Of a stretch of 64,000 nt of DNA, positions 846-24,922 are shown piece by piece (the stretch's first letter is position 1; each line of letters opens with the position of its first letter). Both the position numbers and the translations under genes were made by a program. Source of the stretch: Candidatus Woesearchaeota archaeon (lineage in GTDB: Archaea > Nanobdellota > Nanobdellia > Pacearchaeales > GW2011-AR1). Under the pieces are notes generated by a model. That model ran no database searches. It was given only the letters and a program-made list of their open reading frames with translations, and was not told where the DNA came from. Location of the stretch: the NCBI GenBank assembly GCA_964437555.1, contig CAYTHI010000003.1, positions 782 through 64,781 of the forward strand, in the 5' to 3' direction.

Positions 846-917
846 CTTAATAAATGAGGAAAAGAGATTAAAAGGGTTTTGGGGAAGGTTTAAATTAATT
901 CTTTCTTTTTCTTTTAT

Positions 918-1313
918 ATGGAAAGAAGCAAATTGCCTTTCAGGAGAAATTGTGAAGGATATTTTTTTAAGGAAGGAAATATTTTGGCTAAAGATAGAGG
1001 GGAATTTACAGAGTTTCCAGGCGGGGGAGTTGATGATGGAGAAACACCCGAAGAAGCATTAACCAGAGAGACTTTTGAGGAAACAGGCGCAATAGTTGAT
1101 AATTTGCAGAAAGTTGGAGATGCCAATTTTATCTGGGGTAAAGACTGGGCTAAGACAGACAAGCAAAAAGAGAGATATAAAAGATTTAAAGGAGAAGAAA
1201 TGCATTTTTTTGTCGGTAAGATAAAAGAATTAAAGGAAACAAAACATGAAGATAAATGGAGAGGTGAGATTTTCATGCCAATCAAAGAGGTTATAAATAA
1301 GTTAGAAGGTTAA
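918..1313 (+). CDS. NUDIX hydrolase
   Basis: Nudix box GGGVDDGETPEEALTRETFEETG (GX5EX7REUXEEXGU). Confidence 0.8.
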   Translation: MERSKLPFRRNCEGYFFKEGNILAKDRGEFTEFPGGGVDDGETPEEALTRETFEETGAIVDNLQKVGDANFIWGKDWAKTDKQKERYKRFKGEEMHFFVGKIKELKETKHEDKWRGEIFMPIKEVINKLEG

Positions 1314-1406
1314 AAACCATTTGGTAAAGATATTAAAAGCTATAGGGAAATGCAGTTGAGGATTTTAAGAGAGAAGGTTTAAAACTTCCAACGAAGTTCA
1401 TTTTTG

Positions 1407-1862
1407 ATGGAGTTGAGCGAGCTTTTAGTCAAGGCAAAGAAAACCAGTTATGCAAGCGGGAATAAAGCAAAAGTCTTAGCAGATGGTTTTGAAGAGTTTG
1501 TTTATGAGGAGGAGGGATACAAATACAGGGATAGATATTATGCTAAGGGCCCTAATCCTTTTGGCGGAGAGGAATTAGTCTGGTATAATGGCGAGGTTAT
1601 TTGGATTATGAATTTTTATGGTTATTTGATTTCTAATAACATTGAAAGTGAAGTAGTATATGCTTTTCTTAGAAAGGCAATGAGTCTTTTAACAAAAGAA
1701 AGGCCTTTCAGAGGCCCATCTAAATTTAAGGAAGGAAAATTTGAGTATAGAGATGAAAATGAAGGGGACATTGGGTCGTTTAGAGGCACAGAAAAGATTT
1801 ATTTTAAGGGAAAGGAAGTTTACCGACTGCATTATCATGGCGGGCTGCTTGGACAGGTTTAA
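1407..1862 (+). CDS. hypothetical protein
   Basis: ORF of 151 aa from ATG at 1407 (track start 1404 is TTG). No motif recognized. Confidence 0.4.
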   Translation: MELSELLVKAKKTSYASGNKAKVLADGFEEFVYEEEGYKYRDRYYAKGPNPFGGEELVWYNGEVIWIMNFYGYLISNNIESEVVYAFLRKAMSLLTKERPFRGPSKFKEGKFEYRDENEGDIGSFRGTEKIYFKGKEVYRLHYHGGLLGQV

Positions 1863-1871
1863 AAGTATTAA

Positions 1872-2090
1872 TTGCGTGATTTTTTCATGAGAGCAACAGC
1901 AAATTGCCCAAAATGCGGAAAAGTATTGACAACTGATTGCGGGGGTTGTATAATAGCAGGCACAGCATGGCATAAGTGCAAAGGCGATAAAGAAATGGAT
2001 GTTATTGAAGTTAAATGGAAGACTTATCCAGAGAATGAGAAAGAGCTTTTAGATGGGGCGAGAGAAAATAAGGACTTTAATGTTAATTAA
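1872..2090 (+). CDS. small zinc-ribbon protein (CPKCG...CGGC)
   Basis: 72 aa with CxxC...CGGC cysteine pairs, immediately downstream of previous ORF. Confidence 0.35.
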   Translation: MRDFFMRATANCPKCGKVLTTDCGGCIIAGTAWHKCKGDKEMDVIEVKWKTYPENEKELLDGARENKDFNVN

Positions 2091-2091
2091 A

Positions 2092-2280
2092 TCAAGACTT
2101 ATCAGCTTTTTCTTTCCTATTCTGCTGTCTTTCTTTTAATGACTCAATTTCTTTTGTGAAGTACTCATATAACTCTTCCTGCCCTAATTCTTGAGCCAAT
2201 CTTCTTTTTTCTTCATGCAATTCTATCTGCTTTTGTATAGATGCTATTCCCCTCTTGAGCCGATTTTTTCTTTTTGCCAT
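2092..2280 (-). CDS. small coiled-coil protein, translationally coupled to upstream NTase gene
   Basis: 62 aa, K/R/E-rich helical. Its ATG overlaps the NTase stop (TAATG). Confidence 0.35.
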   Translation of the reverse strand: MAKRKNRLKRGIASIQKQIELHEEKRRLAQELGQEELYEYFTKEIESLKERQQNRKEKADKS

Positions 2281-3041
2281 TATATTTTTAGATTATCTTT
2301 TAATAAATTAAGGAGCTTTTCTAAATCTTGCGGATTTAATATGATAGTTAACTTTTGGTCTCTTTTAATTGATTTATATGCCTTATCTATTGCCTTGTAA
2401 TCTATTCCCCCGGCATTTTCTTCAATCCACGATTCAAAAGCATTATTTGAGTATTTCTTTCCTGACAATAAGCATTTAATTATATATAGGCCTTTTAATC
2501 TCAATATCAGAGAGTAGGCAACCCCGTCTAAATTCTCTTTTCTGCTGATAAGTGATTTGTTTATTTTCATAATGCTTTTTGTTTCTTTTATATAGAATTT
2601 AAGATCTGATTTTTTAGGAGGGTATTTTTTTCTTAAATCCTCTAAAAGCTGCGCGTTTATTATGGGCTTTGCGTCAGAAAGAATTGAATAAATTAAAATT
2701 GGAGCAATTTTTATTGAGCCGGTTATGTCCTCTTTTTTTATGGAAATTATTTCATATCCTCTTGATTTTATTTTTATTTTCCTGCCTGAAATAATAAGCA
2801 AGTCTATGTCAGAGCCCGTTTCAGCTTCGTTTCTGGCATGAGAGCCATATAAGTAAAGCCCTTCTATTTCTTCAAGATGACTTCCTAATAATGATAAAAT
2901 CTTTTCTTTTAAGGATTTAGCAGGACGAACTATGATTACTTCCTGCCCGAGCCATTCTTTTGGGGCAAATATATGGGCGCCGTTACCTATTCCTGTGACT
3001 TTTCTTACTATCTGCTCATGATTTTCCAATTGCTTTAACAT
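2280..3041 (-). CDS. nucleotidyltransferase (Pol-beta/MNT superfamily) with N-terminal AbrB/SpoVT-like swapped-hairpin segment
   Basis: GSHARNEAETGSDIDLLII matches the GS-x9-DxD NTase motif. N-terminal VRKVTGIGNGAHIFAPKEWLGQEVIIV resembles the AbrB/MazE DNA-binding fold. Confidence 0.6.
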   Translation of the reverse strand: MLKQLENHEQIVRKVTGIGNGAHIFAPKEWLGQEVIIVRPAKSLKEKILSLLGSHLEEIEGLYLYGSHARNEAETGSDIDLLIISGRKIKIKSRGYEIISIKKEDITGSIKIAPILIYSILSDAKPIINAQLLEDLRKKYPPKKSDLKFYIKETKSIMKINKSLISRKENLDGVAYSLILRLKGLYIIKCLLSGKKYSNNAFESWIEENAGGIDYKAIDKAYKSIKRDQKLTIILNPQDLEKLLNLLKDNLKI

Positions 3042-3075
3042 GTATATACTTAGTATATACTAGTATTTAAGTGTT

Positions 3076-3414
3076 TTGGGGCGGATGGTTTGGAAAGAAG
3101 GCGAAGGACTAAGAATAGAAGAGAAGCTGGACAATATCAAGAAAGAGATAATAGGGCTTGCGCAGGAGAAGAATACGGATGTCCTTTTTTTTTTTTGTAA
3201 AAAGTGCTCAATAAAGGAATATGAAAAAATTATTTATCCTGATGATAAGGAAGGTTTCGCGGAATTAATCAGGAGCAAGGGGCTTTATAACAAATTTTCT
3301 TCCCTTAATTATTTTAAGCTTGCTCCTGCAATAAGAAAAAAAGAGCTGGATGCAGAAATTCTGGGCTTAATCAAAAAGGAAAAGGATTTTAGGCTGTCAT
3401 TAAGGGATATTTGA
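3076..3414 (+). CDS. hypothetical protein
   Basis: 112 aa ORF. Contains a T12 homopolymer (3186-3197) encoding FFFF. 3-prime end overlaps antisense with the RadC fragment. Confidence 0.3.
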   Translation: MGRMVWKEGEGLRIEEKLDNIKKEIIGLAQEKNTDVLFFFCKKCSIKEYEKIIYPDDKEGFAELIRSKGLYNKFSSLNYFKLAPAIRKKELDAEILGLIKKEKDFRLSLRDI

Positions 3415-3582
3415 TAAGGGATATTCTTTTAGCATTCTGTTTGCCATGTCTGTGACATTTTCATTAATCGTTCCTGTCCTTAGAATTATCGCGAAAAGCT
3501 CCGCGTCGCTCAGCGCTTCTGCTCCGTGCTTCAGGAAACGCTCTCTGGGCTTTGATGAATCTGGGAGGTCTTTGATACGCAT
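3400..3582 (-). CDS. truncated RadC-like protein: N-terminal helix-hairpin-helix segment only, no JAB domain
   Basis: MRIKDLPDSSKPRERFLKHGAEALSDAELFAIILRTGT matches the RadC/UPF0758 N-terminus (LPxxxRPRERLxxxGxxxLSDxELLAILLRTG). ORF stops after 60 aa. No JAB (HxHPxG) motif downstream in any frame that I could see. Confidence 0.55.
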   Translation of the reverse strand: MRIKDLPDSSKPRERFLKHGAEALSDAELFAIILRTGTINENVTDMANRMLKEYPLSNIP

Positions 3583-3640
3583 GAATTTAGAACGAAAAGA
3601 AATTATTTAACTCTTATTACTGGGTTTTGGATTAATTCGA

Positions 3641-4018
3641 TTAAACAGGAACCACCATTGTCTGCTGTGGAAGGTTTTGTGTGTTTTCCTGAACAATAAT
3701 CGGATTAACTTCCCTAATCTGATTTCTTATCATTATCTCATAGAATAATCTTAGTTCGATGGTGTTTTCCTCAATTTTAGCTTCAAATTTCCATTTTGGT
3801 ATCTGTCTTAGATAGATTTTGTCTACTCTAAAAAACTTAGAGGCATCAAATATCTGAATTCCAACTATATATCTGTCTTCATCTATGTCAACTATCATAT
3901 TCTGAAATTCCAAGGAGAAGTCATATTCCCTGTTTTTTACCTTGAAAAATAAGATGTCATTTACATAATCATAGTCCATTTCCCCTTTTCCTTCCAGATG
4001 TCTTGTTTTTTGTTCCAT
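3641..4018 (-). CDS. DUF2283-like putative antitoxin
   Basis: N-terminus MDYDYVNDILFFKV resembles the DUF2283 YDxExDxLYI signature. Immediately downstream of, and 2 nt from, the DUF4258-like ORF. Confidence 0.45.
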   Translation of the reverse strand: MEQKTRHLEGKGEMDYDYVNDILFFKVKNREYDFSLEFQNMIVDIDEDRYIVGIQIFDASKFFRVDKIYLRQIPKWKFEAKIEENTIELRLFYEIMIRNQIREVNPIIVQENTQNLPQQTMVVPV

Positions 4019-4019
4019 T

Positions 4020-4337
4020 TTATATTCTTGGTATATTTGTGAAGTAAAATGACACTATTTTAATCTTTTGGTGTTGGATGTCTGCTATTATCCTCATTGT
4101 CTTTTTTTCGTGCTTGTAGAAAATAGCGTAATTTCCATTGTTTTGGATTCCTACCACTATTGGAGTATCGTGGAGGATATATTCCTTAAGCTTTTCACAT
4201 TTAAATATCTTCCTTTGCTTATCACTTAGTCTGAAGAAAGTATGCTCTGTGCATTCAATCTGTTCTGACTTGTAATCTTTGATTATGCTAAGAAACTCCT
4301 CAATTTCTAACTTTTTCGCTATTAAATTGCCATACAT
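4020..4337 (-). CDS. DUF4258-like putative toxin
   Basis: 105 aa. The ECTEHTFFRLSDKQRKIF segment resembles the DUF4258 HAxxRmxeRgI core. DUF4258/DUF2283 is a known two-gene TA arrangement. Confidence 0.45.
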   Translation of the reverse strand: MYGNLIAKKLEIEEFLSIIKDYKSEQIECTEHTFFRLSDKQRKIFKCEKLKEYILHDTPIVVGIQNNGNYAIFYKHEKKTMRIIADIQHQKIKIVSFYFTNIPRI

Positions 4338-4375
4338 TCAATTTTATGGATTTTTGAGATTATAATTTTTTCTTT

Positions 4376-4423
4376 TTAAGGTTCTCCTGGCTTGCTGGAA
4401 TCCGGGAGGTCTTTGATTCTCAT
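4376..4423 (-). pseudogene. second, paralogous RadC-like 5-prime gene fragment (15 codons then stop)
   Basis: Minus strand reads ATGAGAATCAAAGACCTCCCGGATTCCAGCAAGCCAGGAGAACCTTAA = MRIKDLPDSSKPGEP*. It is about 80 percent identical to the start of the 3400..3582 gene, and the differences are mostly synonymous. Confidence 0.5.
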
Positions 4424-12516: not shown

Positions 12517-13191
12517 ATGGTTAACTTCTATCTGGTTCCTTCATGGTTCTTCGGTTTTGGCACTATTTTGGAATTGATTTTTGGGATTATAACTTTGGCT
12601 GTTTCTCTTTATTCTTTTAAAGTGTATAAATATTCTCAATTAAGAGAGCCAAAGATTTTCGGATGGTCTTTTTTGGCTTTATCCTTGTCTTATTTTATAT
12701 GGGCTGCGGTAAGCGGATATGCAGGATTTCTTGCTCAGAAATCTGTTGATAATGTCTTTAATATTGCCGGTTTTACGCCAATTATTGTTCTTGGAATTTA
12801 TGCGCATATAATATTCTTTGTTCTCGGGCTTGTTACCCTGGCATATCTTACTTTTGGCATTAGAAGCCAGAGAGTTTATACTCTTTTAGCAAGCCTGAGT
12901 CTGATATCAGTATTGTTCAGCCAGACCAAGAGTATTTCTTTTTACTTCGTCTCATCTTTATTGCTGCTTTATGTTCTGTCTTTTTATGCTATTAATAAAT
13001 GGAAAAACAAGTCTTTCAGCAATTACTTTGTTCTTTTATCTTTTGTATTCTTGTTTGCAGGGACTGTTGACTTTACATTCTCTGCTGTGCGTCATATAAC
13101 TTATGTTGTTGGGCACATCTTTTATTTGATTGGATATGCATTTATTCTTGCTAATTTTATCCTCCTTTTTATGAAGTTGAGGAAAAGATGA
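12517..13191 (+). CDS. polytopic membrane protein (hypothetical)
   Basis: Multiple hydrophobic segments. ATGA overlap with the downstream wHTH gene. Confidence 0.5.
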   Translation: MVNFYLVPSWFFGFGTILELIFGIITLAVSLYSFKVYKYSQLREPKIFGWSFLALSLSYFIWAAVSGYAGFLAQKSVDNVFNIAGFTPIIVLGIYAHIIFFVLGLVTLAYLTFGIRSQRVYTLLASLSLISVLFSQTKSISFYFVSSLLLLYVLSFYAINKWKNKSFSNYFVLLSFVFLFAGTVDFTFSAVRHITYVVGHIFYLIGYAFILANFILLFMKLRKR

Positions 13192-13463
13192 GCAAGAAAA
13201 GAACGAGGCTTGAAGTGATTAAAGATATTCTTAATGTTATAAAAGACAGGAACGGAAGGATAAAGCCCACTCATATTTTGTATAAATCCAATTTGTCTCA
13301 TCATATGATGGAAGAATATCTTAATGAATTGATTTCCAAAGAGTTTATAGTTGAGAAAAAACTTGACAAAAGCAAGACTTATTTTATTACTGAGAAAGGC
13401 ATTAAGTTCTTAGAGAATTACAGAATGATTGCTGATTTTACGGAGAGTTTTGGATTGAATTGA
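13188..13463 (+). CDS. small winged-helix DNA-binding protein
   Basis: 91 aa. LEVIKDILNVIKDRNG...KSKTYFITEKGIKFLENY shows an HTH plus wing pattern. Confidence 0.5.
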   Translation: MSKKRTRLEVIKDILNVIKDRNGRIKPTHILYKSNLSHHMMEEYLNELISKEFIVEKKLDKSKTYFITEKGIKFLENYRMIADFTESFGLN

Positions 13464-13501
13464 TTTGCCTAAGAAGCTAACTGATAATTTGTGGCAAACC
13501 T

Positions 13502-13548
13502 ATCATCCGGATGGGCTTATCATCCTATCATCCGGATGCGGCTTATCA
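13502..13548. repeat. two tandem ~25-bp units atcatccggatg(g/c)ggcttatca, each with a 10-bp palindrome catccggatg
   Basis: Direct reading of 13501-13550. Overlaps the 3-prime end of the minus-strand ORF 13503..13826. Confidence 0.6.
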
Positions 13549-13826
13549 AATACTATCTGCATTCTTCTGCCTGAAAGAGCAGCCCATCTTTCTGCAACTT
13601 CTCTGGCAAATCTTTCTTCTCTTGTATCGTAGCAATGCACTTTGTCATATTTGATATCTATATCAATTATTCTTTTATTGAGTAATTTTGCAGTATAGAA
13701 GGAAATTACTTGGTTTGTTATCTCTAATCTACGAGCAGCTAATCTGTATTCTGCTGCAATTTGTTCTGCAAGCATGTCTTGTTCCTCAATTGTATTTCTC
13801 TCTCTGGTTTTTGCTGTATATGCCAT
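13503..13826 (-). CDS. hypothetical protein
   Basis: 107 aa, R/E-rich, no motif recognized. G+C visibly above local background. Confidence 0.4.
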   Translation of the reverse strand: MAYTAKTRERNTIEEQDMLAEQIAAEYRLAARRLEITNQVISFYTAKLLNKRIIDIDIKYDKVHCYDTREERFAREVAERWAALSGRRMQIVFDKPHPDDRMISPSG

Positions 13827-14092
13827 TGTTGCTTTGTTAAGCCTTAAAAGTTTATTTTATATATCTTTCTCTTTTGATGGCTTTGTTTAACAAGTAGCTT
13901 CTGTTTAAAAAGTCTATTTGACAAAGAGACTAATTATTGATAAGATGATGGTCGCAATAGCAAAAAACAAGTAGCCCATTTTAACGAATTATTGATTAAG
14001 GTTCTATGTCATAACATCTGTGTAGTTATTCAAGAAGTAAACTAATTAGGAGTAAAGGCAGAATTTAAATTAGATGAGACATTAGAAAGATA

Positions 14093-14539
14093 ATGACTGA
14101 CCCTTTCGTTTTACCAAAGGACTTACTACATGAAGTTATTTTAAGAACGATTGAAATAAATAACCTTTCTAACCGAATTATAAGACGTGCTTTTGACTTA
14201 GACTTAAAGTTTGAAGAAGAACCCCCTTATCGTTTTTTGAATGCAAATGAGATAAATAGATTTAATAGTTATTTCTTAGATAACTTGGGTGCAAGTTCAA
14301 GAGCAGAACTTTTGTTGGAAATTGTTGGAGATATTACGAATAAAAAAGAATTAAAGTCTTGCTCAGATTTTAAGAATAAATTAATAGACTTTTATAAGAT
14401 TAGAAACATCTTTGCACATAATTATTACCCAAAAGATTTGAAAGGGGTTACTCGCTTAGAGTCATCAACGCCCCACTGGATAGAACTTAACAAACAACAT
14501 CAAGGGTTATTTGAAGAACTAAAGAAATTCCTTATGTAA
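14093..14539 (+). CDS. putative HEPN/Abi_2 (AbiD/AbiF)-like protein
   Basis: KIRNIFAHNYYP matches the Abi_2 RNxxAHH / HEPN Rx4-6H signature. All-helical composition, 148 aa. Confidence 0.4.
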   Translation: MTDPFVLPKDLLHEVILRTIEINNLSNRIIRRAFDLDLKFEEEPPYRFLNANEINRFNSYFLDNLGASSRAELLLEIVGDITNKKELKSCSDFKNKLIDFYKIRNIFAHNYYPKDLKGVTRLESSTPHWIELNKQHQGLFEELKKFLM

Positions 14540-14605
14540 TTAGTATAAATCTTGTTTAATAAGTCAAGGTAAATTATGACTTTTTAAACAAAGCCTCTTT
14601 TGATT

Positions 14606-14619
14606 AAGCCTCTGGAGGT
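14606..14619 (-). repeat. direct repeat of the tRNA-Thr 3-prime end (CCTCCAGAGGCTT), att-like scar
   Basis: Forward aagcctctggagg at 14606-14618 recurs inside the tRNA 3-prime end (14685-14697). A shorter third copy AGAGGCTTT sits at 14591-14599. Confidence 0.45.
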
Positions 14620-14685
14620 TTATTCGAACTGCGTTCTCATACCTCCATTGGCTAGCAGCTTCGCCTTCGCTCAGTATACTATGAA

Positions 14686-14774
14686 AGCCTCTGGAGGGAA
14701 TTGAACCCCCAACCCTCAGTTTTTTTGCTTTTCTTGGTACAAAACTGATGCTCTAACCATTGAGCTACAGAGGC
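14686..14774 (-). tRNA. tRNA-Thr (anticodon UGU) with ~16-nt anticodon-loop intron
   Basis: Manual fold: acceptor GCCTCTG/CAGAGGC, D arm GCTC-AATGGTTA-GAGC, anticodon stem TCAGT/ACTGA flanking loop TTTGTA plus inserted CCAAGAAAAGCAAAAAA, T arm GGGGG-TTCAATT-CCCTC. Confidence 0.8.
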
Positions 14775-14814
14775 TTGTATTGTGAAAAGAAAATAGTCTT
14801 AAAAATCTATCGGA

Positions 14815-16474: not shown

Positions 16475-16957
16475 ATGAAAAAGAGTGTTTTATTAGCTCT
16501 TATCTTTCTTTCTTTTATTCCTGTGAGTTTCGCTGATGAGATAATGAATGTGAATGTTGACATTGTTGTTCCGCAGGATATTGTTGAAATAGAAGTTCCT
16601 GATTATGTTGACCTTGGCGAGATAAACTGGACTTATGAGAGTAGGACTAACCCGACTTCAAATGATAAGATTTATATTAACAATACAGGAACTGTTAATG
16701 TGAGTGTAACTCCTGAACTTAAAAACCCTGATGAAATTTATGAATTTCTTCATTTTACAAAAAGATTAAGCGGCGAGAATTTTAACTGGACTCAAATAGG
16801 AGATTGGAGCATATTTATTCCAAGATCTGATGAATTGGGGGGATATGAGGATGATTACTTTTATATGAGACTGGATTTGACGGATTTTACCGGAAATATT
16901 AATCAGAGCCTTATTGATTATGATACTGACGTGTTATTTGTTGCAGTGGGAGAATGA
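16475..16957 (+). CDS. secreted protein (Sec signal peptide), hypothetical
   Basis: MKKSVLLALIFLSFIPVSFA signal peptide. First gene of a four-gene coupled surface cluster. Confidence 0.5.
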   Translation: MKKSVLLALIFLSFIPVSFADEIMNVNVDIVVPQDIVEIEVPDYVDLGEINWTYESRTNPTSNDKIYINNTGTVNVSVTPELKNPDEIYEFLHFTKRLSGENFNWTQIGDWSIFIPRSDELGGYEDDYFYMRLDLTDFTGNINQSLIDYDTDVLFVAVGE

Positions 16958-17541
16958 AAGTAGCTGTCTTATTTTTTGTTTTAATCTTTTTATTAAATTT
17001 TTTCATCGTTGACGGACTTAAAATAGGAATAAGTCCTTCTCAGGTTGAATTGCATGCTGATGAAAGCATGGATGCATGTGTGAATTTTACTTTATCTTCT
17101 GACAGAGATGTAGAATTTGATATAAGCTCTTTTTGGAGTGATTCAGATTCCAGAAAACTCGGAGATTATATATTATATCCTGCTGAGAAAGGCATAAGCT
17201 TTTCTTATAATTCATTGAATAGGTCAGGAGATAAAAGCAATTATCAAATGTGTTTGATAGGAGTCAAGGCAGGGGAATATTACGGAGTTTTGCTCGCAAA
17301 AGTTCTTGCAAAGAATGCTGCTGTCGGTATGTGGGTAGATTTTGAGGTTAAGGGCGAAAATGTGTTTGAGCGTTTAAGCGACAAGATTACAGGAGATGTT
17401 TTGGTCCTGAACGGAGCTCCTAAAGATGGGAAAAACTTTGCATATCCGGATTTACTTTTGCTCTTTAGCATTTTTCTTTCTTTTGTATTTCTTGTCCTTA
17501 TTCTAATGCTTGTTTTTAAGAGAACTAAAAATAAAATATGA
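16954..17541 (+). CDS. surface protein with N-terminal signal and C-terminal TM anchor, hypothetical
   Basis: N-terminal hydrophobic segment. C-terminal LLLLFSIFLSFVFLVLILMLVFKRTKNK anchor. ATGA overlap with upstream gene. Confidence 0.5.
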   Translation: MKVAVLFFVLIFLLNFFIVDGLKIGISPSQVELHADESMDACVNFTLSSDRDVEFDISSFWSDSDSRKLGDYILYPAEKGISFSYNSLNRSGDKSNYQMCLIGVKAGEYYGVLLAKVLAKNAAVGMWVDFEVKGENVFERLSDKITGDVLVLNGAPKDGKNFAYPDLLLLFSIFLSFVFLVLILMLVFKRTKNKI

Positions 17542-17592
17542 CTGACGAACATATCTGATAAACCTTATATATCCTTATTGGCTGATTAAATA

Positions 17593-19467
17593 ATGCTGAA
17601 TAAAAGAGGGCAGGTCGCTATTTTTATCATAATTGCGATAATTATTGTAGGAGGAATAGTTTTATTTGTTTCATTCAGGGATGTTATTTTCGGAACGAGC
17701 ATTCCTGCTGAATTACAGCCGGTTTTTAATGCGTATCAGGCCTGCATTAATGAAGAAACTGAAAGAGGACTTAATTTATTAGCTAATCAGGGAGGAAGAA
17801 TAAATATTGATGAATCTGACTTAGGGAATGATTATTCGCCCTTTACAAAAAATCTTAATTTTTACGGAGTTTCTGTTCCTTATTGGTATAGACTTGACGA
17901 GAAAGGGTTCATTGAAGAGAACATCCCCGCGAGAGGAGACATGGAAGAAGAGCTTGCGCAGCTTATTGAAGAAAATCTGAATGATTGTGATTTATCTTCT
18001 TATTATGAGCAGGGATTTTATATTGATTTGCCTGATGAAATCTCTTCGTCAGTCAGCATTTCAAATAATAAAGTGGAAGTTTCTGTGGATGCTGGCTTAA
18101 GCGTATCAAAAAAAGATATTTCTGCTGTAAAAGGCAAATATGATTTAGAAACGCAAAGCAGGCTTGGAGAGTTTTATGATGCGGCAAGAAAACTTTATGA
18201 TTATGAAGCTGAGACAAATTTTGCAGAAGAATATTCTATAGATGTCATCAGATTGTATGCTCCTGTTGATGGGGTTGAAGTCCAGTGCAGCCCGAAAATC
18301 TGGAAGACAGGAGAAGAGATTGATGCTGTTAAGGAAGGATTGGAGTCAAATATAGCTGCGATAAAGTTTCAGGGGGACGATTTTACTCTGGGGAGTAAAG
18401 ATAACAAATATTTTGTTGTTGACGCAAATACAAAGGTTCCTGCCAGATTAATTTATTCCAAGGAATGGCCCAGCGTTTTTGAGATAAGCGGCGATAAAGT
18501 AACTAATGAACTGATGATTGCAGAAGCTATTGGAAATCAGCAGGGGCTTGGAGTGATGGGCTTTTGCTATGTTCCCTATCATTTTGTATATGACATGAGG
18601 TTTCCGGTTATGTTTCAAGTAGGGGACGGGGTTGATTTATTCCAGTTTCCTGTTACTGTGATTGTAGATAATAATCTGGCTAAGAAAGCTGAATTGCCGC
18701 AAATAAATTACCAGGAACCTAAATTCAGGATGTGCGATTTCAAGGAAGCAGAAGCCGAGATTCACACTTATGATGAAGAGCTTAATCCTGTTGAAGCAGA
18801 TGTAAGCTTTGAATGCCTTGAAGAATCATGCGATTTAGGAAGAACAGAAATCAAGAATGGAGATGCTGTTTTTGAAGGCAGTATTCCTATCTGTGTAAAT
18901 GGAAAAATAGTTGCCAAAGCAGAAGGATTTTCTGATGCAAGACAAACGTTTTCCTCAAATAGCGAAAGTGTTGCAAATGTAATCATGGAGAAAGAATATG
19001 AAGTTGGAGTTAATGTTATGGTTGCAGGAGGGGGCATGAAGGAAGGCGAGCAAGCAGTTATTTACTTTGAAAATGATGAAGGCGGCAGAAGCGCTGTTAT
19101 TCCAGGAAATGAGAAAGTCAAGCTTAAGGAAGGGCAATACAAAATTAAGGTTTATGTTTACGGGAATTCCGGAATTACAATCCCTGCTTCAAGCAAGAGG
19201 CAGTGCATTGATGCTGCCAGAGGGGGCTTTGCAGGATTTTTCGGAGCGACAAAAGAGGAATGCTTTAATATTGATATTCCTGAGACAAAGATTGATTATG
19301 CTCTTAAAGGCGGAGGGCAAGAGGAAAGTTATATCCTTAAAGATGAATTGATTTCAGAAGAGATAAATTTGGAAGTTCAGGAATTGCCTTCGCCTGATTC
19401 TTTGGAGCAATTGCAGTACAATTATGAGCTTTTCAACAGCATGGGGGTTGGAATATCATTCAGATGA
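17593..19467 (+). CDS. large pilin-like surface protein with class III (type IV pilin-like) signal peptide
   Basis: MLNKRGQVAIFIIIAIIIVGGIVLFV fits a basic-Gly cleavage motif with Gln at +1 followed by a hydrophobic stretch, as in archaeal prepilin-peptidase substrates. 624 aa. Confidence 0.5.
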   Translation: MLNKRGQVAIFIIIAIIIVGGIVLFVSFRDVIFGTSIPAELQPVFNAYQACINEETERGLNLLANQGGRINIDESDLGNDYSPFTKNLNFYGVSVPYWYRLDEKGFIEENIPARGDMEEELAQLIEENLNDCDLSSYYEQGFYIDLPDEISSSVSISNNKVEVSVDAGLSVSKKDISAVKGKYDLETQSRLGEFYDAARKLYDYEAETNFAEEYSIDVIRLYAPVDGVEVQCSPKIWKTGEEIDAVKEGLESNIAAIKFQGDDFTLGSKDNKYFVVDANTKVPARLIYSKEWPSVFEISGDKVTNELMIAEAIGNQQGLGVMGFCYVPYHFVYDMRFPVMFQVGDGVDLFQFPVTVIVDNNLAKKAELPQINYQEPKFRMCDFKEAEAEIHTYDEELNPVEADVSFECLEESCDLGRTEIKNGDAVFEGSIPICVNGKIVAKAEGFSDARQTFSSNSESVANVIMEKEYEVGVNVMVAGGGMKEGEQAVIYFENDEGGRSAVIPGNEKVKLKEGQYKIKVYVYGNSGITIPASSKRQCIDAARGGFAGFFGATKEECFNIDIPETKIDYALKGGGQEESYILKDELISEEINLEVQELPSPDSLEQLQYNYELFNSMGVGISFR

Positions 19468-22400
19468 GAAAAATAATATTATCTTTCTTTTTTGTATCTT
19501 TACTTGGCTTGGTTTTTGTTGGTTTAGCAGGCGCGCAGACAGCTACTTTTGTAAATCATGTTTCTCCTGATTTCAGGCAATATTATTCTGCTGAGGAAAG
19601 GCTTGGGCAGTATTATCCTATTTTCTCCCAGGAAGATGAATTTTGCAGAAACAGGCAGGATATAATATTACAAGTTGCTCCGGCGGGATGCCAGCCGACT
19701 GTTGTAAGAAGTGATTTGCTTGCTGAGCAAAATGTTCCTGTTTTCTGCCAACTGCAGGCAATACAGGCAAATCCGTTGGTTGATATAAAGCAGATAAGAA
19801 ATATAAGATTCAGCGGCAGATATCCTGCTGAAATTTCAGGAACAGGTTTTCATCCTGCTAAAGCTGCATTAAGGACAGGAAATGTTTTGCTGGGAAATCC
19901 TGTTTTAAATGATGTAGGATATGTTGTAGTTGTATTGAAGAAAAATCCGAATGAAAAAGAATTGCCTGATTTTGTCAATGCAACCCTTACTGCTAATTTA
20001 GATTATTATGCCGGCAATGCTTTTGGGATAGGCTCAAGCGAATTACTTTTGCAGGTAGTTGATGATAGTAAATGGAATTCCGTGAGAAACAAGCAGAGCT
20101 TTTTGAACGGCGAATATTTCTTCAGATTAGAAGACGCCGAGCCGGAATTTGCGATTGTTTCTGTTTATCATCAGGACAGAAAAATTAATACAGTAAGAAT
20201 AAGCAGAGCAGAGGCATCAGAAAAGATTTATCTTCCCGGCTTGTACTGCGGAGGAGAGCTTAGATTAAAGTATGACGGATTTGTTTCTCCTGAAAATATT
20301 GCAAGATTAAAAGTTGGAGACGATGAAATTGAGGTTTATGAAGGCAGCAGTTTTCTTAATAATAAATGTGTTGTCAGAGACATTAGATTTACCAGCAATA
20401 GCGAAGGAAGTGTTGATGTTGTCTGCGGAACAGAAAGATTCAGCTTAAGCATAAATCCCGAAAGGCTGAATACGGGAGATTTAGTCAAGTTTGCTGATAA
20501 GGCAGAGAGCGCAGAACTTTGGAGTGTTGTTGGTTTTGAAGAAAATTCTGACGGGAAGAAAATAAGAATTACTAATTTAGCAGGAACAGAAAGCAGAACT
20601 ATTTCTTATTCAGAAATTGTTCCTGCTGATGAAGGCAGGCTTTATGAGGCAGTATATAATGCAGGCATTGAGGATTACATAAAGCAATCTATTGACAGCT
20701 ACGAGAGAACAGCCGTTGATTATTCAGCTGAAAAAGACAACTCCGGATTTTACGGGGAGAGAGCTCTTGAAAAGGGAATTGAATTTGCTGATAATACAAA
20801 CAAAGAAGTTACAGAAGCAAGATTAATCAATCTGCTCTTGGAGCAATACCCTTCTGCAAATAACTTTTCAAAATACAGCGACAAGCTTAACAGGATGTAC
20901 AGCATTAATTCTGACAAGGCAGTTGCGGTTGTGGATATTGATAATGATTATAAGACAATAAAATTAATTGGCTTTAGAGCGCCGGAGAAAAAATCTACGG
21001 CAACCATTGCATGGGGCGGAGAAAGATTCAGCGTTGAGCAGGGAAACAGCACTTCAGTCTCTCTTGGAAATCTGACTCTGAACAGGATTGAAAGAACAGG
21101 AATCAGCATTTCAGTTAAATGCTTGGATAAGGATTTAAGCGGAGGCAATTTCAATGTTAAAGTTGATGAAACTCAAAGAGGTGTTTGCGGAAGGGATTTG
21201 TCAATTGTAAATCTGAATATAGAAGATTTTGCCAGGATAAAAGTTGAGCCTGCAACAAGAACAACAGGACAGACAAACATAAGTATCAATATTGGAATTG
21301 AAAAAAGAGCGATACAGCTTTCTCCTGAGAAGGCGAGAGAGAAAATAGAAAATTTGAATAAAACCATTGAAAAATGGGAATCTGTTTCTAATAGCCTTGG
21401 AAATGTTGTAACAGGATTGAAGGCGGCGTGCTTTGCAACTTCAGGAATTCTGACTGCAAAGAATTTTCTTACAGGATTAAGCGGAGAAGCTTTGGCAAGG
21501 CAAAAAGTTATGAGAGACAGAGGAGGCTGGACAGACAGATGCACTAATGCTGTAAGCAGAGGAGAGTATTCAAGTATGGATGAATGTTTCAGGCAGAATG
21601 CAGGAGCCATTAGCGGCGATGTAAAATCAATGACAGAGGCGTTGAATCAGGTCAATGACAGGATTAAAGGAATACAGGGAGATTATGTCAAGCCCGCAGG
21701 AATTTTTGGAGAGACAATTACAGTTGATACAGACGGATTAAAACAAACCAACTTAGATTATATAAAACAGACTTATGGAAATTCTAATATAGAAAGCACG
21801 ACATCTAGCAATCAGCAGCTTGTTCTTGGTGATGTCATAGGGAGATTGCAAAGTGCTGATTCTCTTTCTCTTGATAAAATGAGTGATATTGAACTTTATG
21901 CAAAGCTGATTGATAATCAGGGAATAAGCAATGAGCAGAAAGAATTGTACAAGCAGAGACTTGGTTTTATTCTTGAGGATGTTGAAAAAAGGAATACAGC
22001 AGATAGCGAAAGAACGAGCTTTGAGACAGATACAGGATTTAAGGCGTATATTCCAAGCTATTCAAAGTCGGGAGAATATTATGGAAATGTTTATTCATCG
22101 GGAAAGATAAATTTAGGAAGCGGAGTTGATATTGAGGCGAATTCTCCTATCCAAGCTGTTCAGGGCAATGATGGAGCACAGTATTTGTTTGTTCTAAATG
22201 AGTTAAAGAATCAGGATGGGCAGACAATCTATTCTTATGACAGAAATAAAATTTATAAACTGACTGATAATAATGGCTGGACAGCCAATGCATTGCCTGC
22301 AACTTTTGATGTTGACAAAAGCATTGGAAGTTTTTCCACTTTCAGGAGCTTGAATGCGGGAAGTTATAATTATGCTTTTGCGCAGGGAGAGGCTGTTGTG

Positions 22401-24833
22401 AAATATTATGAAAGAGAGCCATTTAAGGGAATGCCTGCAATGGTGCCAGTAGATGTTGAGTCCGGGTTTTATGCTGCGACAGAGCAAACATTGCCAGGAT
22501 TTGGAAATATAAAAGCATTTGAATCTTCAGGAAGAATAGTAGGATTTTATGTTTGTAATGTTATGGAAGACAAGAGAGTTGGATTTTTCTCTCCAGGATT
22601 TGGAGATGACAGATGCATTAGATTTGATTTAACAACAGGGCAGCCTTTAGATGTATTCCCGGGGTTAGATAGTAGTAAGGCAAAAAGATTAGTTGAGAAG
22701 GCAATTCAGGCATTAAATGAAGCCGCAAGGCAGTATGGAAAAAGCCAGGTTACTATTCTTGGAAAAGTTTTCCAGACAGGAGCGCCTGCTGCATCTTCTC
22801 CTGCAACGCAATGCCAGGATTTCATGTCCCCTGAAGACTGCCAGTTGCTTTTCAATGTTTGCGATCCTGTGATATGCCCTACTTCAAGATGTGATTTTGG
22901 AGGGCAATACCCTGTTGATAATGTAATACAATCAGGAATTGTTGGAAGTGCTTTATTATGCCTTCCTAATGCTAAAGAAGGAATTGTTGTTCCTGTCTGC
23001 CTGTCGGGAATAAAAGCAGGAGTGGATGGGTATTTATCTATATTGAAATCTCATCAGGCATGTTTGCAGGAAAATATTGATACGGGAAATACTGTTGGTG
23101 TATGTGATTTAATCACTTCTGTTTATGCTTGTGAATTTTTCTGGAGACAGGCAGCTCCTCTTGCTAATGTTTTATTGCCTAAGATAGTTGAGTTTGCTTA
23201 TACAGGAGGACAGGGGCAAGTCAGAGGAGGAGGAGAATATTTGACTGTTCAATCTGCTTGGAAGAATACGCAGGATTCAATAGACTATTTCACTAATTAT
23301 TATGCCAAGAATTCTTTTGATTCTTTCAGAGCAAGAAGTATTGAGGAGGCGGGAACTCCTTTCTGCAAGGCATTTGTTTCTGCTAAGTCACCGACGTCGT
23401 TTGATACGTTATTAGCGCCAGATTCACCGGCGCAATATCATGCATGGTTTAGAGAGACAATTTATAGTGATGCAACTGTTCCTTCCACATCGCAGTATAA
23501 ATTATTTTATCATATCTTTGCAGGAAACGACAGAGGGGCTGTTTTCAGTGTTTATTTGAAGGAGCCCCCGGAAAGCTCTTATTACAGGACAACGCCGCAA
23601 ATAATTGTAGCTTCCGGATTTGTTGCAAGAGGGCAGGCAGTCAGCGAAACAAAAGACTTCACTGCTCCTTCTGGATACAAACAGCTTTGCATAAGAGTGA
23701 ATGACCAGGAAGAATGCGGATTCAAGCAGGTTTCAACGAGCTTTGCAGTTGACTATTTGAAAGACCAGTTTGTAAAAGATGAATTGGGAAGGACAGACAT
23801 TAAGACTGAAGCTGAATGCATTTCAGGAAGTGTTAATCCCGGTGCTTTGCTGAATCCTAATATACAGGAGGCAGCACAGGAAGCAATTGACCCTGCTGTC
23901 TATAAAAGAGGGATTGTAAGGATTTGCTCTACTGAAAATCCCGGGCTTTCAACTGATTCTGCAAGATTCAAGGAAGTTGGATTCTGCGGCGATGAGAAAC
24001 TTGTTTGCTGGCTTGATACCAATAGTGTTGATACAGCATTAAGTGATAGCATTCCTGCGGATATAAAAGCAGGCATAAATAATCAGACGCTTTCTGAATT
24101 AGGGGGAGAAGCAGATAAAATATTGCAGGAAAATGGATTTGTTTTGAATGCAGAAGCTTTGTTAAAGATAGATAAGATTGTAACAGAAATAGATAAGTTA
24201 GTAGGAAAAGGAAGTGAATTAAAGAATCAGCAATCACTTGCATCTGATTATTCACAGAAAGCTGTTTCTATTGAGTCAGATATAGAAGACTTAATGAGAA
24301 ACTTATTTTTTGACAGAGATAAAGCTGCTTTATTGATTGAAAGAGGCAGACTTTATGAAGGGCTTGCAAGAATATTGATCGGGCCTGATTTTAAAGGTGA
24401 TTTTAAAGGATTAGGAAAGGCGAGCCACACAGAATGCAGAGAGCAAATGTGCTATTCTGTGGAAGGGCCTGGAGATGATGAATGCAATGTTGATGAGGAT
24501 TGTGCTAGTATAACAGGAAATAGTAATGGAGGGACAGGTCAAGAAGCAGCAGGAACAGCAGAGCAATCTTTAAGCATTAAGGATGGCATTTTGCACGGAA
24601 AGGAAGGAAGTTTTCTTTATACTGATAATGTGATTAGTCCTATTTATTTTGTTGGCACAAGAGTTTTCGTTGTACTTTCAGACAGAGCTATTTTAATAGG
24701 AGACATTAGTGAAGGAAAAATTGTTATCAATAGCAATCAGGTTAGTGATGCGCAGGAAAGAGGTTTTATTGATGAAAGTGTTTCTGCCCTTACGAGCAAA
24801 ATTGACGGGAAAGATTTTGACGGATTTTTTTAA
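19464..24833 (+). CDS. giant (1789 aa) Cys-rich secreted/cell-surface protein
   Basis: Sec signal MRKIILSFFFVSLLGLVFVGLAGAQT. Many Cys pairs. ATGA overlap with the upstream pilin-like gene. Uninterrupted 5.4-kb ORF. Confidence 0.7.
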   Translation: MRKIILSFFFVSLLGLVFVGLAGAQTATFVNHVSPDFRQYYSAEERLGQYYPIFSQEDEFCRNRQDIILQVAPAGCQPTVVRSDLLAEQNVPVFCQLQAIQANPLVDIKQIRNIRFSGRYPAEISGTGFHPAKAALRTGNVLLGNPVLNDVGYVVVVLKKNPNEKELPDFVNATLTANLDYYAGNAFGIGSSELLLQVVDDSKWNSVRNKQSFLNGEYFFRLEDAEPEFAIVSVYHQDRKINTVRISRAEASEKIYLPGLYCGGELRLKYDGFVSPENIARLKVGDDEIEVYEGSSFLNNKCVVRDIRFTSNSEGSVDVVCGTERFSLSINPERLNTGDLVKFADKAESAELWSVVGFEENSDGKKIRITNLAGTESRTISYSEIVPADEGRLYEAVYNAGIEDYIKQSIDSYERTAVDYSAEKDNSGFYGERALEKGIEFADNTNKEVTEARLINLLLEQYPSANNFSKYSDKLNRMYSINSDKAVAVVDIDNDYKTIKLIGFRAPEKKSTATIAWGGERFSVEQGNSTSVSLGNLTLNRIERTGISISVKCLDKDLSGGNFNVKVDETQRGVCGRDLSIVNLNIEDFARIKVEPATRTTGQTNISINIGIEKRAIQLSPEKAREKIENLNKTIEKWESVSNSLGNVVTGLKAACFATSGILTAKNFLTGLSGEALARQKVMRDRGGWTDRCTNAVSRGEYSSMDECFRQNAGAISGDVKSMTEALNQVNDRIKGIQGDYVKPAGIFGETITVDTDGLKQTNLDYIKQTYGNSNIESTTSSNQQLVLGDVIGRLQSADSLSLDKMSDIELYAKLIDNQGISNEQKELYKQRLGFILEDVEKRNTADSERTSFETDTGFKAYIPSYSKSGEYYGNVYSSGKINLGSGVDIEANSPIQAVQGNDGAQYLFVLNELKNQDGQTIYSYDRNKIYKLTDNNGWTANALPATFDVDKSIGSFSTFRSLNAGSYNYAFAQGEAVVKYYEREPFKGMPAMVPVDVESGFYAATEQTLPGFGNIKAFESSGRIVGFYVCNVMEDKRVGFFSPGFGDDRCIRFDLTTGQPLDVFPGLDSSKAKRLVEKAIQALNEAARQYGKSQVTILGKVFQTGAPAASSPATQCQDFMSPEDCQLLFNVCDPVICPTSRCDFGGQYPVDNVIQSGIVGSALLCLPNAKEGIVVPVCLSGIKAGVDGYLSILKSHQACLQENIDTGNTVGVCDLITSVYACEFFWRQAAPLANVLLPKIVEFAYTGGQGQVRGGGEYLTVQSAWKNTQDSIDYFTNYYAKNSFDSFRARSIEEAGTPFCKAFVSAKSPTSFDTLLAPDSPAQYHAWFRETIYSDATVPSTSQYKLFYHIFAGNDRGAVFSVYLKEPPESSYYRTTPQIIVASGFVARGQAVSETKDFTAPSGYKQLCIRVNDQEECGFKQVSTSFAVDYLKDQFVKDELGRTDIKTEAECISGSVNPGALLNPNIQEAAQEAIDPAVYKRGIVRICSTENPGLSTDSARFKEVGFCGDEKLVCWLDTNSVDTALSDSIPADIKAGINNQTLSELGGEADKILQENGFVLNAEALLKIDKIVTEIDKLVGKGSELKNQQSLASDYSQKAVSIESDIEDLMRNLFFDRDKAALLIERGRLYEGLARILIGPDFKGDFKGLGKASHTECREQMCYSVEGPGDDECNVDEDCASITGNSNGGTGQEAAGTAEQSLSIKDGILHGKEGSFLYTDNVISPIYFVGTRVFVVLSDRAILIGDISEGKIVINSNQVSDAQERGFIDESVSALTSKIDGKDFDGFF

Positions 24834-24838
24834 CAACA

Positions 24839-24922
24839 TGCGGGAAAGAGGATTCGAACCTCTGTAAGCACTAAGCTACTTGGTCCTAAGCCAAGCCCGT
24901 TTGACCACTCCGGCATTCCCGC
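24839..24922 (-). tRNA. tRNA-Leu (anticodon UAG)
   Basis: Manual fold: acceptor GCGGGAA/TTCCCGC, anticodon stem CTTGG/CCAAG with loop CTTAGGA, long variable arm, T arm AGAGG-TTCGAAT-CCTCT. Confidence 0.85.

What the first reader, a model, noticed from the sequence alone, without database searches (positions are those of the whole stretch)
13500..14775. Small accessory islet at tRNA-Thr: att-like repeats of the tRNA 3-prime end, a putative Abi_2/HEPN gene, and a tandem palindromic repeat
The intron-containing tRNA-Thr(UGU) ends ...CCTCCAGAGGCTT. Exactly the same 13 nt recur 67 bp further on (forward 14606-14618), and a shorter AGAGGCTTT copy sits at 14591-14599. A 13-nt exact repeat within 100 bp is very unlikely by chance, so this is the classic footprint of integrase-mediated insertion into a tRNA 3-prime end. 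Immediately beyond is a 148-aa all-helical ORF whose KIRNIFAHNYYP segment matches the Abi_2 (AbiD/AbiF) RNxxAHH / HEPN Rx4-6H motif, although it is about half the usual Abi_2 length. Next is a G+C-rich 107-aa unknown ORF ending in two tandem 25-bp units that each contain the palindrome catccggatg; these are candidate protein-binding or arm-type sites.
Basis: partly seen in the sequence, partly recalled or inferred. Interest (0 to 1): 0.55.

Follow-up and report, generated by a model that had tools for sequence, protein, structure and literature searches.

The report
Insertion-sequence remnant beside a tRNA scar
The supposed integrase-made "islet" next to tRNA-Thr is a patchwork of separate mobile-DNA scars: a 717-bp transposase-less insertion-sequence derivative carrying a probable HEPN RNase gene, a 79-bp duplication of the tRNA's 3' end, and an orphan ORF of unknown origin.

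Summary
Its explanation, one integrase-inserted islet, does not hold.

- **ORF148 arrived by transposition.** The 148-aa ORF (14093-14539) lies in a 717-bp element (13879-14595) with 17-bp terminal inverted repeats (GGCTTTGTTTAAMAAGT) and a perfect 9-bp target-site duplication (TCTTTTGAT). Upstream of the ORF is a 45-codon remnant of a DDE transposase gene with an in-frame stop.
- **Full-length relatives are IS5-family elements.** In DPANN-archaeal metagenomes they encode an IS5-family (IS903-like) transposase whose stop codon overlaps the start of an ORF148 homologue, and they end in the same inverted repeat.
- **ORF148 is probably a minimal HEPN protein.** It has invariant RNx3H and Ex3R motifs, 24 of 29 homologues weakly hit the Cas13b HEPN region, and dN/dS is about 0.1. 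No homologue matches Pfam Abi_2.
- **The 13-nt tRNA repeat is real but encloses no genes.** It is absent in most relatives and present at other distances in a few, as expected of an attachment-site scar. It brackets only 66 non-coding bp. No integrase was found among the ORFs tested.
- **ORF107 and the 25-bp tandem palindromes are unexplained.** They have no convincing relatives anywhere.

Interest is modest. The IS family with a coupled HEPN-like gene appears undescribed.

The parts
14686..14774 (-). tRNA-Thr(UGU) with a 16-nt canonical intron (14722-14737)
   Evidence: Rfam tRNA, 63 bits, with an 18-nt insert after UUUGU. Intron-less orthologues occur in L037, L043 and L048.
14685..14697 (-). 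Proximal copy of the 13-nt repeat: the last 11 nt of the tRNA, the discriminator and 1 further nt
14619..14684 (-). 66-bp non-coding spacer between the repeats, homologous to the sequence that precedes the distal repeat in L037
   Evidence: Window 14605-14653 is 86% identical over 49 nt to L037 6052-6100. Weaker similarity further 5' is seen by eye in the MAFFT alignment. No Rfam hit. The predicted fold is not significant (z -1.7).
14606..14618 (-). Distal copy of the 13-nt repeat (att-like scar)
14596..14604 (.). Right copy of the 9-bp target-site duplication TCTTTTGAT
14579..14595 (-). Right terminal inverted repeat (GGCTTTGTTTAAAAAGT on the minus strand). With 14552-14566 it forms the conserved terminal hairpin.
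   Evidence: (I11, I23). The same end follows the ORF148 homologue in 16 of the 29 loci scanned, and the flanks diverge right after AAAGCC. Hairpin z -4.25.
14093..14539 (+). ORF148: probable minimal HEPN-domain protein and conserved second gene of the IS family
13959..14092 (+). Pseudogene remnant of the last 44 codons of the IS5-family DDE transposase, with an in-frame stop. Its stop codon overlaps the ORF148 ATG.
   Evidence: tblastn gives 84% identity to the L001 transposase C-terminus, E 6e-17. The translation shows E->stop.
13879..13913 (+). Left terminal inverted repeat (13879-13895, GGCTTTGTTTAACAAGT) plus a second tandem copy of the motif (13897-13913)
   Evidence: (TRF period 18). 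The full-length element L009 has the same architecture.
13870..13878 (.). Left copy of the 9-bp target-site duplication TCTTTTGAT
13503..13826 (-). ORF107: an orphan ORF that may not be a functional gene
   Evidence: Only itself is found among 5.8 billion proteins. In the full HMMER scan, the one match that looks real is a weak one to the MULE-like fragment P0058. The stronger match to P0057 (E 1.9e-11) is nine short stretches of a repeat unit in a 1743-aa protein, which I judged spurious by inspection. Absent from syntenic relatives.
13499..13548 (.). Two tandem 25/26-bp units, each holding the palindrome CATCCGGATG. They overlap the last codons of ORF107.
   Evidence: No copy in 60 other loci or in viral contigs.

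Best explanation
The region between the HTH_45 gene and tRNA-Thr is a mosaic of independent mobile-DNA scars, not one islet.

(1) Insertion-sequence derivative. A non-autonomous derivative of an archaeal IS5-family (IS903-like) insertion sequence occupies 13879-14595. A DDE transposase supplied in trans inserted it into the target TCTTTTGAT, which was duplicated. An internal deletion has removed all but the last 44 codons of its own transposase gene. What remains is both terminal inverted repeats, with their doubled binding motifs, and the family's conserved second gene, ORF148.

(2) ORF148. I infer that it is a small HEPN-fold RNase. It probably forms a dimer that builds a composite RNx3H active site, and in intact elements it is translationally coupled to the transposase. 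I think it most likely acts as a selfish toxin-like or regulatory RNase that favours keeping the element. This step is inference.

(3) tRNA repeat. The 13-nt duplication of the tRNA-Thr 3' end, with its 66-bp filling, is an older and separate scar. It is most likely the remnant (attL, arm, attR) of a small element that integrated site-specifically into the tRNA 3' end. The IS later landed one base beyond it.

(4) ORF107 and the tandem palindromes. These are a lineage-specific insert of unknown origin, possibly another decayed transposon fragment.
For: IS structure:
- The 17-nt TIRs occur only at these two places in the window (0.01 expected). Identical 9-mers abut them directly.
- L009 holds a full element, 124-4405, with perfect TIRs of the same sequence, the same doubled left-end motif and its own 9-bp TSD, CTCAAAACC.
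- The right end...GACTTnTTAAACAAAGCC, follows the ORF148 homologue in 16 of the 29 loci scanned, and the flanks then become unrelated.
- Window 13959-14093 encodes the transposase C-terminus with an in-frame stop. L003 and L011 keep 36 and 27 codons, so they are independent deletion derivatives.

IS family:
- The transposase is DDE_Tnp_1 and hits IS5-family transposases in plasmids.
- Bacterial IS17 has the TIR GGCTTTGTTGCACAAA, sharing the first 9 nt with this element.

ORF148:
- The start/stop overlap with the transposase is seen in L001, L006 and L009.
- dN/dS is 0.07-0.14.
- E14x3R18 and R104-N-x3-H109 are invariant or nearly so. These are the two HEPN signatures described in PMC3710099.
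- 24 of 29 members hit the PADLOC Cas13b model at its C-terminal end, which I take to be its second HEPN domain (best E 4e-6). Others hit Csx1 and CARF_HEPN.

tRNA scar:
- The repeat is exact and unique in the window.
- 8 of 55 tRNAs in the collected loci have a repeat of 10 nt or more of the 3' end downstream, against 1 in each control.
- Syntenic relatives mostly lack it.
- L037 carries a homologous arm plus repeat 670 nt from the tRNA.
Against: - No empty-site allele of this exact locus was found for either the IS or the tRNA repeat. The closest relatives share only about 50-58% S3Ae identity.
- No autonomous IS copy is in the 64-kb window, so mobilisation in trans is inferred.
- No antitoxin partner is evident.
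- A deletion leaving exactly core, arm, core is an awkward history for the 79-bp unit.
- No integrase was seen in any of the relatives' inserts that were examined.
Confidence: 0.78

Rival explanations
1. First reader's model. One accessory islet (ORF148, ORF107 and arm-type repeats) was inserted by a tyrosine integrase into the tRNA-Thr 3' end. The 13-nt and 9-nt copies are its att sites.
For: A direct repeat of the tRNA 3' end exists and is polymorphic among relatives. The region downstream of tRNA-Thr is variable in relatives, for example a metal-resistance cassette in L049.
Against: The repeats bracket only 66 bp, and all the proposed cargo lies beyond the distal copy. ORF148 has its own TIRs and TSD and occurs in many unrelated contexts. 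The 9-nt 'copy' is the IS terminus. No further copy with 2 or fewer mismatches lies toward 13500. No integrase was found among the ORFs tested.
Confidence: 0.04
2. The 79-bp unit is a decayed tandem duplicate of the tRNA-Thr gene, a pseudo-tRNA with an internal deletion. Its 3' end is kept identical by gene conversion. It is not a recombinase scar.
For: By eye the spacer holds D-loop-like (TAGCCAATGG against TAGCTCAATGG) and T-loop-like (GTTCGAAT) strings in the right order.
Against: The Rfam tRNA model finds nothing there even at E 10. The identity block is sharply limited to the 3' end and runs 1 nt past the discriminator, as att cores do. The window and L037 copies share derived bases that the tRNA lacks (GAATAAACC against CAATTCCC) despite saturated divergence of the host genes. 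This fits horizontal spread better than ancient vertical decay.
Confidence: 0.15
3. ORF148 is not an RNase. It is a helical accessory factor of transposition, for example a DNA-end-binding or regulatory protein that recognises the doubled terminal motifs.
For: It is always placed next to the right inverted repeat and hairpin, and it is translationally coupled to the transposase. The fold matches are only generic helical bundles.
Against: Homologues also pair with a PD-(D/E)xK nuclease gene away from any IS end (L004/L013, L030). The invariant residues are exactly the HEPN catalytic signatures. The gene stays under purifying selection in elements that have lost the transposase.
Confidence: 0.2
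4. The spacer plus distal repeat is a small functional RNA gene, a tRNA-minihelix mimic transcribed with or after tRNA-Thr.
For: A hairpin pairs GCCAATGGAGG with CCTCCAGAGGC. L041 has a similar GCGAATGGAGGT...CTCCAGAGGC arrangement. The sequence is conserved between the window and L037.
Against: The fold is not better than shuffles (z -1.7, 10 of 200 shuffles as good). The L037 substitutions break three predicted pairs and none compensates. No Rfam family matches. Most relatives lack the unit.
Confidence: 0.05

Closest known systems
IS5 family, IS903 group insertion sequences (for example IS903 and IS17)
   Same: DDE_Tnp_1 transposase. 9-bp target duplication. Terminal repeats start GGCTTTGTT, as in IS17 (GGCTTTGTTGCACAAA). 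That IS903 itself has GGCTTTGTTGAATAAATC ends and a 9-bp duplication is from my memory.
   Different: The host is a DPANN archaeon. A second, conserved, translationally coupled 150-160-aa gene lies at the right end. The terminal motifs are doubled and the right end forms a hairpin. Some copies carry kilobases of cargo (L009, L015). Some transposases have an N-terminal SWIM finger (L001). The window copy has lost its transposase.
Non-autonomous IS derivatives (MITE-like deletion derivatives)
   Same: Intact TIRs and TSD with no functional transposase.
   Different: It keeps an intact, selected protein-coding gene. Classical MITEs are non-coding.
Minimal HEPN toxins/RNases (HepT/DUF86, HEPN-T, Cas13 and Csx1 HEPN domains)
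   Same: Size of about 150 aa and an all-helical fold. RNx3H near the C-terminal third and Ex3R in helix 1. Weak but consistent profile hits to the Cas13b, Csx1 and CARF_HEPN HEPN regions.
   Different: No MNT antitoxin neighbour in the IS context. No Pfam family matched. The partner gene is a transposase or a PD-(D/E)xK nuclease.
Toxin-antitoxin and defence genes embedded in transposition modules (Tn3 family; PMC7157771)
   Same: A toxin-type gene is an integral, conserved part of a transposon rather than occasional cargo (abstract and title only).
   Different: This is a single gene with no recognisable antitoxin, in a different transposon family and in archaea.
tRNA-targeted integrative elements with attL/attR direct repeats (PMC6563490)
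   Same: A direct repeat of the tRNA 3' end extending just past the gene. It is present or absent among relatives.
   Different: Only 66 bp lie between the repeats, with no integrase and no cargo.

Membership tests
IS5 family / IS903 group | DDE_Tnp_1 (PF01609) transposase | tested here: met
   Full-length relatives score E 2e-22 and hit annotated IS5-family transposases. In the window only a 44-codon pseudogene remnant survives.
IS5 family / IS903 group | Terminal inverted repeats starting GGC, of the IS903-group type | tested here: met
   The window TIRs are 16/17 complementary. The first 9 nt equal the IS17 TIR.
IS5 family / IS903 group | 9-bp target-site duplication | tested here: met
   TCTTTTGAT in the window and CTCAAAACC in L009.
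IS5 family / IS903 group | Single transposase ORF, about 1-1.5 kb (from memory of ISfinder descriptions) | tested here: not met
   A conserved second ORF is present, and complete copies reach 4.3 kb.
HEPN superfamily | Rx4-6H motif with a polar residue after R (PMC3710099) | tested here: met
   R104-N-I-F-A-H109. R, F, A and H are invariant in 29 sequences, and also in the alignment that includes the 36-48% identical members.
HEPN superfamily | Upstream acidic Ex3[KR] motif | tested here: met
   E14 and R18 are nearly invariant in helix 1.
HEPN superfamily | Helical-bundle HEPN fold | tested here: inconclusive
HEPN superfamily | Profile similarity to established HEPN families | tested here: inconclusive
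   PADLOC Cas13b in 24 of 29 members (best E 4e-6), Csx1 in 5, CARF_HEPN in 4. NCBIfam Cas13b E 1e-3. In Pfam only 1 of 29 hits HEPN_RiboL-PSP, at E 0.05. HHpred was not available.
HEPN superfamily | Metal-independent endoribonuclease activity | not testable with these tools
   Needs biochemistry.
Abi_2 (AbiD/AbiF, PF07751) | Match to the Pfam Abi_2 profile | tested here: not met
   No hit at E<=1 for ORF148. None of 29 family members hits at E<=10.
   The family is about 70 proteins of 148-178 aa. Every named source record is a Nanoarchaeota or Pacearchaeota MAG. No plasmid or phage relatives.
tRNA-integrated genomic island (tyrosine-recombinase type) | Direct repeat of the tRNA 3' end (attL/attR) | tested here: met
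   13-nt exact repeat, 0 expected by chance.
tRNA-integrated genomic island (tyrosine-recombinase type) | Cargo and integrase between the repeats | tested here: not met
   66 non-coding bp between the copies. No integrase among 18 window ORFs scanned.
tRNA-integrated genomic island (tyrosine-recombinase type) | Empty sites in related genomes | tested here: met
   Six of the eight syntenic relatives (L032, L033, L043, L048, L049, and L037 at the proximal position) show no repeat within 300 nt of the tRNA. L039 and L055 have one. These relatives are distant, however.

The most novel reading that the evidence does not exclude
DPANN archaea may host an undescribed branch of IS903-like transposons in which a minimal HEPN RNase gene is an obligatory module, translationally coupled to the transposase. 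The gene would survive, under purifying selection, in TIR-bounded transposase-less mini-elements, making it a transposable solo toxin or defence gene. Separately, the short (50-120 bp) fillings between duplicated tRNA-Thr 3' ends in several archaeal lineages could be copies of a tiny element mobilised in trans by an integrase, not random relics.
Probability: 0.25. Interest if true: 0.55.

Novelty: new variant of a known kind. Interest (0 to 1): 0.38.

Why it matters
- It replaces an 'integrase islet' reading with a concrete structure defined to the base: IS ends, target duplication, transposase stump and tRNA scar.
- It shows that a small protein family confined to DPANN archaea, with no Pfam assignment, travels as the second gene of an IS5-family element. 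A 2019 survey (PMC6563490) stated that composite DNA transposons carrying passenger genes had not been detected in archaea, so L009-type copies with kilobases of cargo are of some interest.
- If ORF148 is an active HEPN RNase, this would be a simple case of a toxin-type gene built into an archaeal transposition module. It would be testable with one small protein.
- For genome annotation of DPANN MAGs, the TIR motif GGCTTTGTTTAAAAAGT is a usable marker of this family.

Tried and rejected
- S3Ae-based locus search in GTDB genomes found nothing by peptide words. It was replaced by a tRNA DNA pattern search.
- I looked for the left inverted repeat upstream of the transposase in L001, L006 and L003 and did not find it. 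Those copies are either truncated or extend beyond the fetched DNA.
- The PDB sequence-profile search gave only a chance L30 hit. Foldseek against PDB gave nothing. The afdb50 library was unavailable.
- ORF148 has no relatives in the plasmid or phage collections. PHROGs gave no meaningful hit.
- ORF107 has no family in Pfam, NCBIfam, PADLOC or PHROGs. Its single-sequence AF2 model is too weak (pTM 0.38) to justify a fold search. tblastx against all loci gave only the P0058 fragment.
- The 25-bp unit and the spacer+repeat are absent from viral contigs.
- The sigma-70 promoter and intrinsic-terminator scan is uninformative for an archaeon.
- I considered and rejected the 66-bp spacer as a MITE (no terminal inverted repeats), as a box C/D sRNA (no boxes), and as a split-tRNA half (no T-arm or acceptor pairing). 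These checks were by eye.
- I considered a degenerate third att copy next to the HTH_45 stop, as in L037. Similarity is only about 50%, so I rejected it.
- A possible GGCTTATCA / TGATTAAGCC inverted pair bounding ORF107 is too short to mean anything.
Full report
**Setting.** The window comes from an AT-rich DPANN archaeon. ORF148's exact sequence is recorded from an NCBI contig of 65 kb, and homologues are labelled Nanoarchaeota or Pacearchaeota. The finding lies between a winged-helix gene (HTH_45, 13188-13463, plus strand) and a block of tRNA-Thr, ribosomal protein S3Ae and L44e on the minus strand.

**Checking the observation.**
- Rfam confirms a tRNA at 14686-14774 on the minus strand (63 bits). 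It has an 18-nt insertion in the anticodon loop.
- Read by hand, the loop is UUUGUA, then a 16-nt intron (14722-14737), then A. The anticodon is therefore UGU (Thr). ARAGORN misnames the gene because of the intron.
- The 13-mer AAGCCTCTGGAGG occurs exactly twice in the window, at 14606-14618 and 14685-14697. No shuffle produced a match.
- ORF148, ORF107 and the two 25/26-bp units with CATCCGGATG are all present.
- Small corrections: 66 bp separate the copies; the short AGAGGCTTT copy is at 14590-14598; ORF107 is only marginally richer in G+C.

**ORF148 sits in an insertion-sequence derivative.**
- The repeat finder reported a 17-nt inverted pair, 13879-13895 (GGCTTTGTTTAACAAGT) and 14579-14595 (ACTTTTTAAACAAAGCC) (I11). 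The pair is unique in the window.
- Identical 9-mers abut it directly: TCTTTTGAT at 13870-13878 and at 14596-14604. This is the signature of a DDE-type transposition event.
- ORF148 has about 70 homologues, all without a Pfam domain. In other contigs the homologue starts on the stop codon of a DDE_Tnp_1 transposase gene (L001/2, L006/7, L009, L012).
- The homologue is followed by the same terminal hairpin and the same ...AAACAAAGCC end in 16 of the 29 loci scanned. After that end the flanks are unrelated.
- L009 holds a complete copy (124-4405) with perfect TIRs (GGCTTTGTTTAAAAAGT), the same doubled motif at the left end, and its own 9-bp duplication, CTCAAAACC. It carries a NUMOD3/Vsr-like nuclease, a wHTH protein and an unknown gene as cargo.
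- In the window, 13959-14092 translates to SKKQVAHFNELLIKVLCHNICVVIQEVN*LGVKAEFKLDETLER. This is 84% identical to the C-terminus of the L001 transposase and has an in-frame stop.
- The window element is therefore an internal-deletion derivative. L003 and L011 are independent derivatives that keep 36 and 27 codons.
- The transposase matches annotated IS5-family transposases. The bacterial IS5-family element IS17 has the TIR GGCTTTGTTGCACAAA, which shares the first nine bases.
AAAGCC is the IS terminus and TCT is the start of the target duplication.

**What ORF148 probably is.**
- Pfam finds nothing, and in particular no Abi_2, for ORF148 or for any of 29 homologues.
- The family conserves two motifs: E14-x3-R18 in the first helix and R104-N-x3-H109. 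These are the two signatures given for HEPN domains, including the polar residue after the arginine (PMC3710099).
- 24 of 29 members weakly hit the C-terminal end of a Cas13b model, which I take to be its second HEPN domain (best E 4e-6). Others hit Csx1 and a CARF-HEPN model.
- The AlphaFold model is confident (pLDDT 84) and has five helices.
- I therefore call it a probable minimal HEPN protein and not an Abi_2 member.
- dN/dS between copies is 0.07-0.14, including the window copy, so the gene is maintained.
- Relatives also occur outside IS ends, coupled instead to a PD-(D/E)xK nuclease gene (L004/L013, L030).
- My mechanistic reading is inferred, not shown: a dimeric RNase acting as a selfish toxin-like or regulatory module of the transposon.

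**The tRNA 3'-end repeat.**
An integrated element lies between attL and attR, and here that interval is 66 non-coding bp. The IS inserted one base beyond the distal copy.
- A DNA-pattern scan for the tRNA's 3' part returned 28 loci. Eight keep the L44e-S3Ae-tRNA-Thr synteny, and L037 and L049 also keep HTH_45, the membrane protein and Gins downstream.
- Most loci have no repeat. Sharp 12-18-nt copies of the 3' end, running one or two bases past the gene, occur at 50 nt (L041), 78 nt (L052), 118 nt (L055) and about 640 nt (L039).
- Over all collected loci, 8 of 55 tRNAs have such a downstream repeat, against 1 in each of two controls.
- In L037 a one-mismatch copy lies 670 nt from the tRNA and overlaps the HTH_45 stop codon. 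The 49 nt ending in it are 86% identical to the window's spacer plus repeat.
- The host proteins are only about 58% identical, so that similarity is better explained by related small elements entering the same tRNA than by vertical relics.
- The predicted hairpin is not significant, and the L037 changes break pairs rather than compensate. I therefore do not favour a functional RNA.
- No integrase was found in the window ORFs tested or in the L039 and L049 inserts.
- My reading is an old att-type scar, held with moderate confidence.

**ORF107 and the tandem units.**
- ORF107 has no homologue among 5.8 billion clustered proteins.
- A full HMMER scan found only two other matches. One is a short repeat unit in the 1743-aa protein P0057, which I judged spurious by inspection. 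The other is a weak match of residues 14-55 to a 102-aa fragment, which itself weakly hits the MULE transposase domain.
- ORF107 is absent from the syntenic relatives.
- The 25-bp unit is unique to this locus among everything fetched.
- The origin stays unknown. A decayed transposon fragment is possible but unproven.

**Verdict.** The most useful product is the definition of an apparently undescribed IS903-like family in DPANN archaea that carries a conserved HEPN-like second gene. The window holds a transposase-less copy of it.

Noticed in passing
L003:3735-3890: The 3' end of tRNA-Lys(UUU), TCGGGGCCA, is repeated with the same 79-nt start-to-start spacing as in the window. A truncated copy of the IS (last 36 transposase codons plus an ORF148 homologue) begins right after the distal copy.
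   Followed up: partly
L009:124-4405: A complete 4.3-kb transposon of the same family with perfect TIRs and a 9-bp TSD. Besides the transposase and the ORF148 homologue it carries a NUMOD3 + DUF559/Vsr-like (MTES_1575-type) nuclease, a 358-aa unknown protein and a wHTH protein.
   Followed up: partly
L004:3357-4471, L013, L030:3772-5465: ORF148-family genes outside any IS end, overlapping or closely following a PD-(D/E)xK (Cas4/RecB-like) nuclease gene. In L004 they sit in a cluster of nucleotidyltransferase-HEPN pairs next to a type I methylase.
   Followed up: no
window 24750-24922: Two overlapping 9-mers of the tRNA-Leu(UAG) 3' end (CCTCTTTCC, TCTTTCCCG) recur 25 and 76 nt downstream. They lie inside the 3' end of the convergent 1789-aa ORF and may be chance.
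   Followed up: partly
window 19464-24833: A very large (1789 aa) ORF with an N-terminal signal-like segment. It is preceded by three smaller secreted-looking ORFs (16475-19467).
   Followed up: no
window 2280-3041 (-): A nucleotidyltransferase (Polbeta/NTP_transf_2) protein with a weak N-terminal DUF2080 'putative transposon-encoded protein' match.
   Followed up: no
window 13145-13198: A 20-nt inverted repeat (85% complementary) spans the overlap between the membrane-protein gene and the HTH_45 gene. It attracts spurious microRNA-family matches in Rfam.
   Followed up: no
L049:1432-5237: In a syntenic Woesearchaeota genome the space between tRNA-Thr and HTH_45 holds an ArsR regulator, a P-type ATPase and a cupredoxin protein. 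The tRNA-Thr downstream region is therefore a variable, cargo-accepting site.
   Followed up: partly
L036:3452-3700, L047:4198-4400: Bacterial loci (labelled Saccharibacteria and Gammaproteobacteria) caught by the tRNA pattern show 18-21-nt repeats of tRNA-Lys and tRNA-Leu 3' ends 117-166 nt downstream. These are the same kind of short-range att-like scar.
   Followed up: no
L001:2680-2756 and L006:2890-2975: G+C-rich, hairpin-prone leaders directly upstream of the transposase start codons in two full-length copies. No left inverted repeat was found nearby.
   Followed up: no
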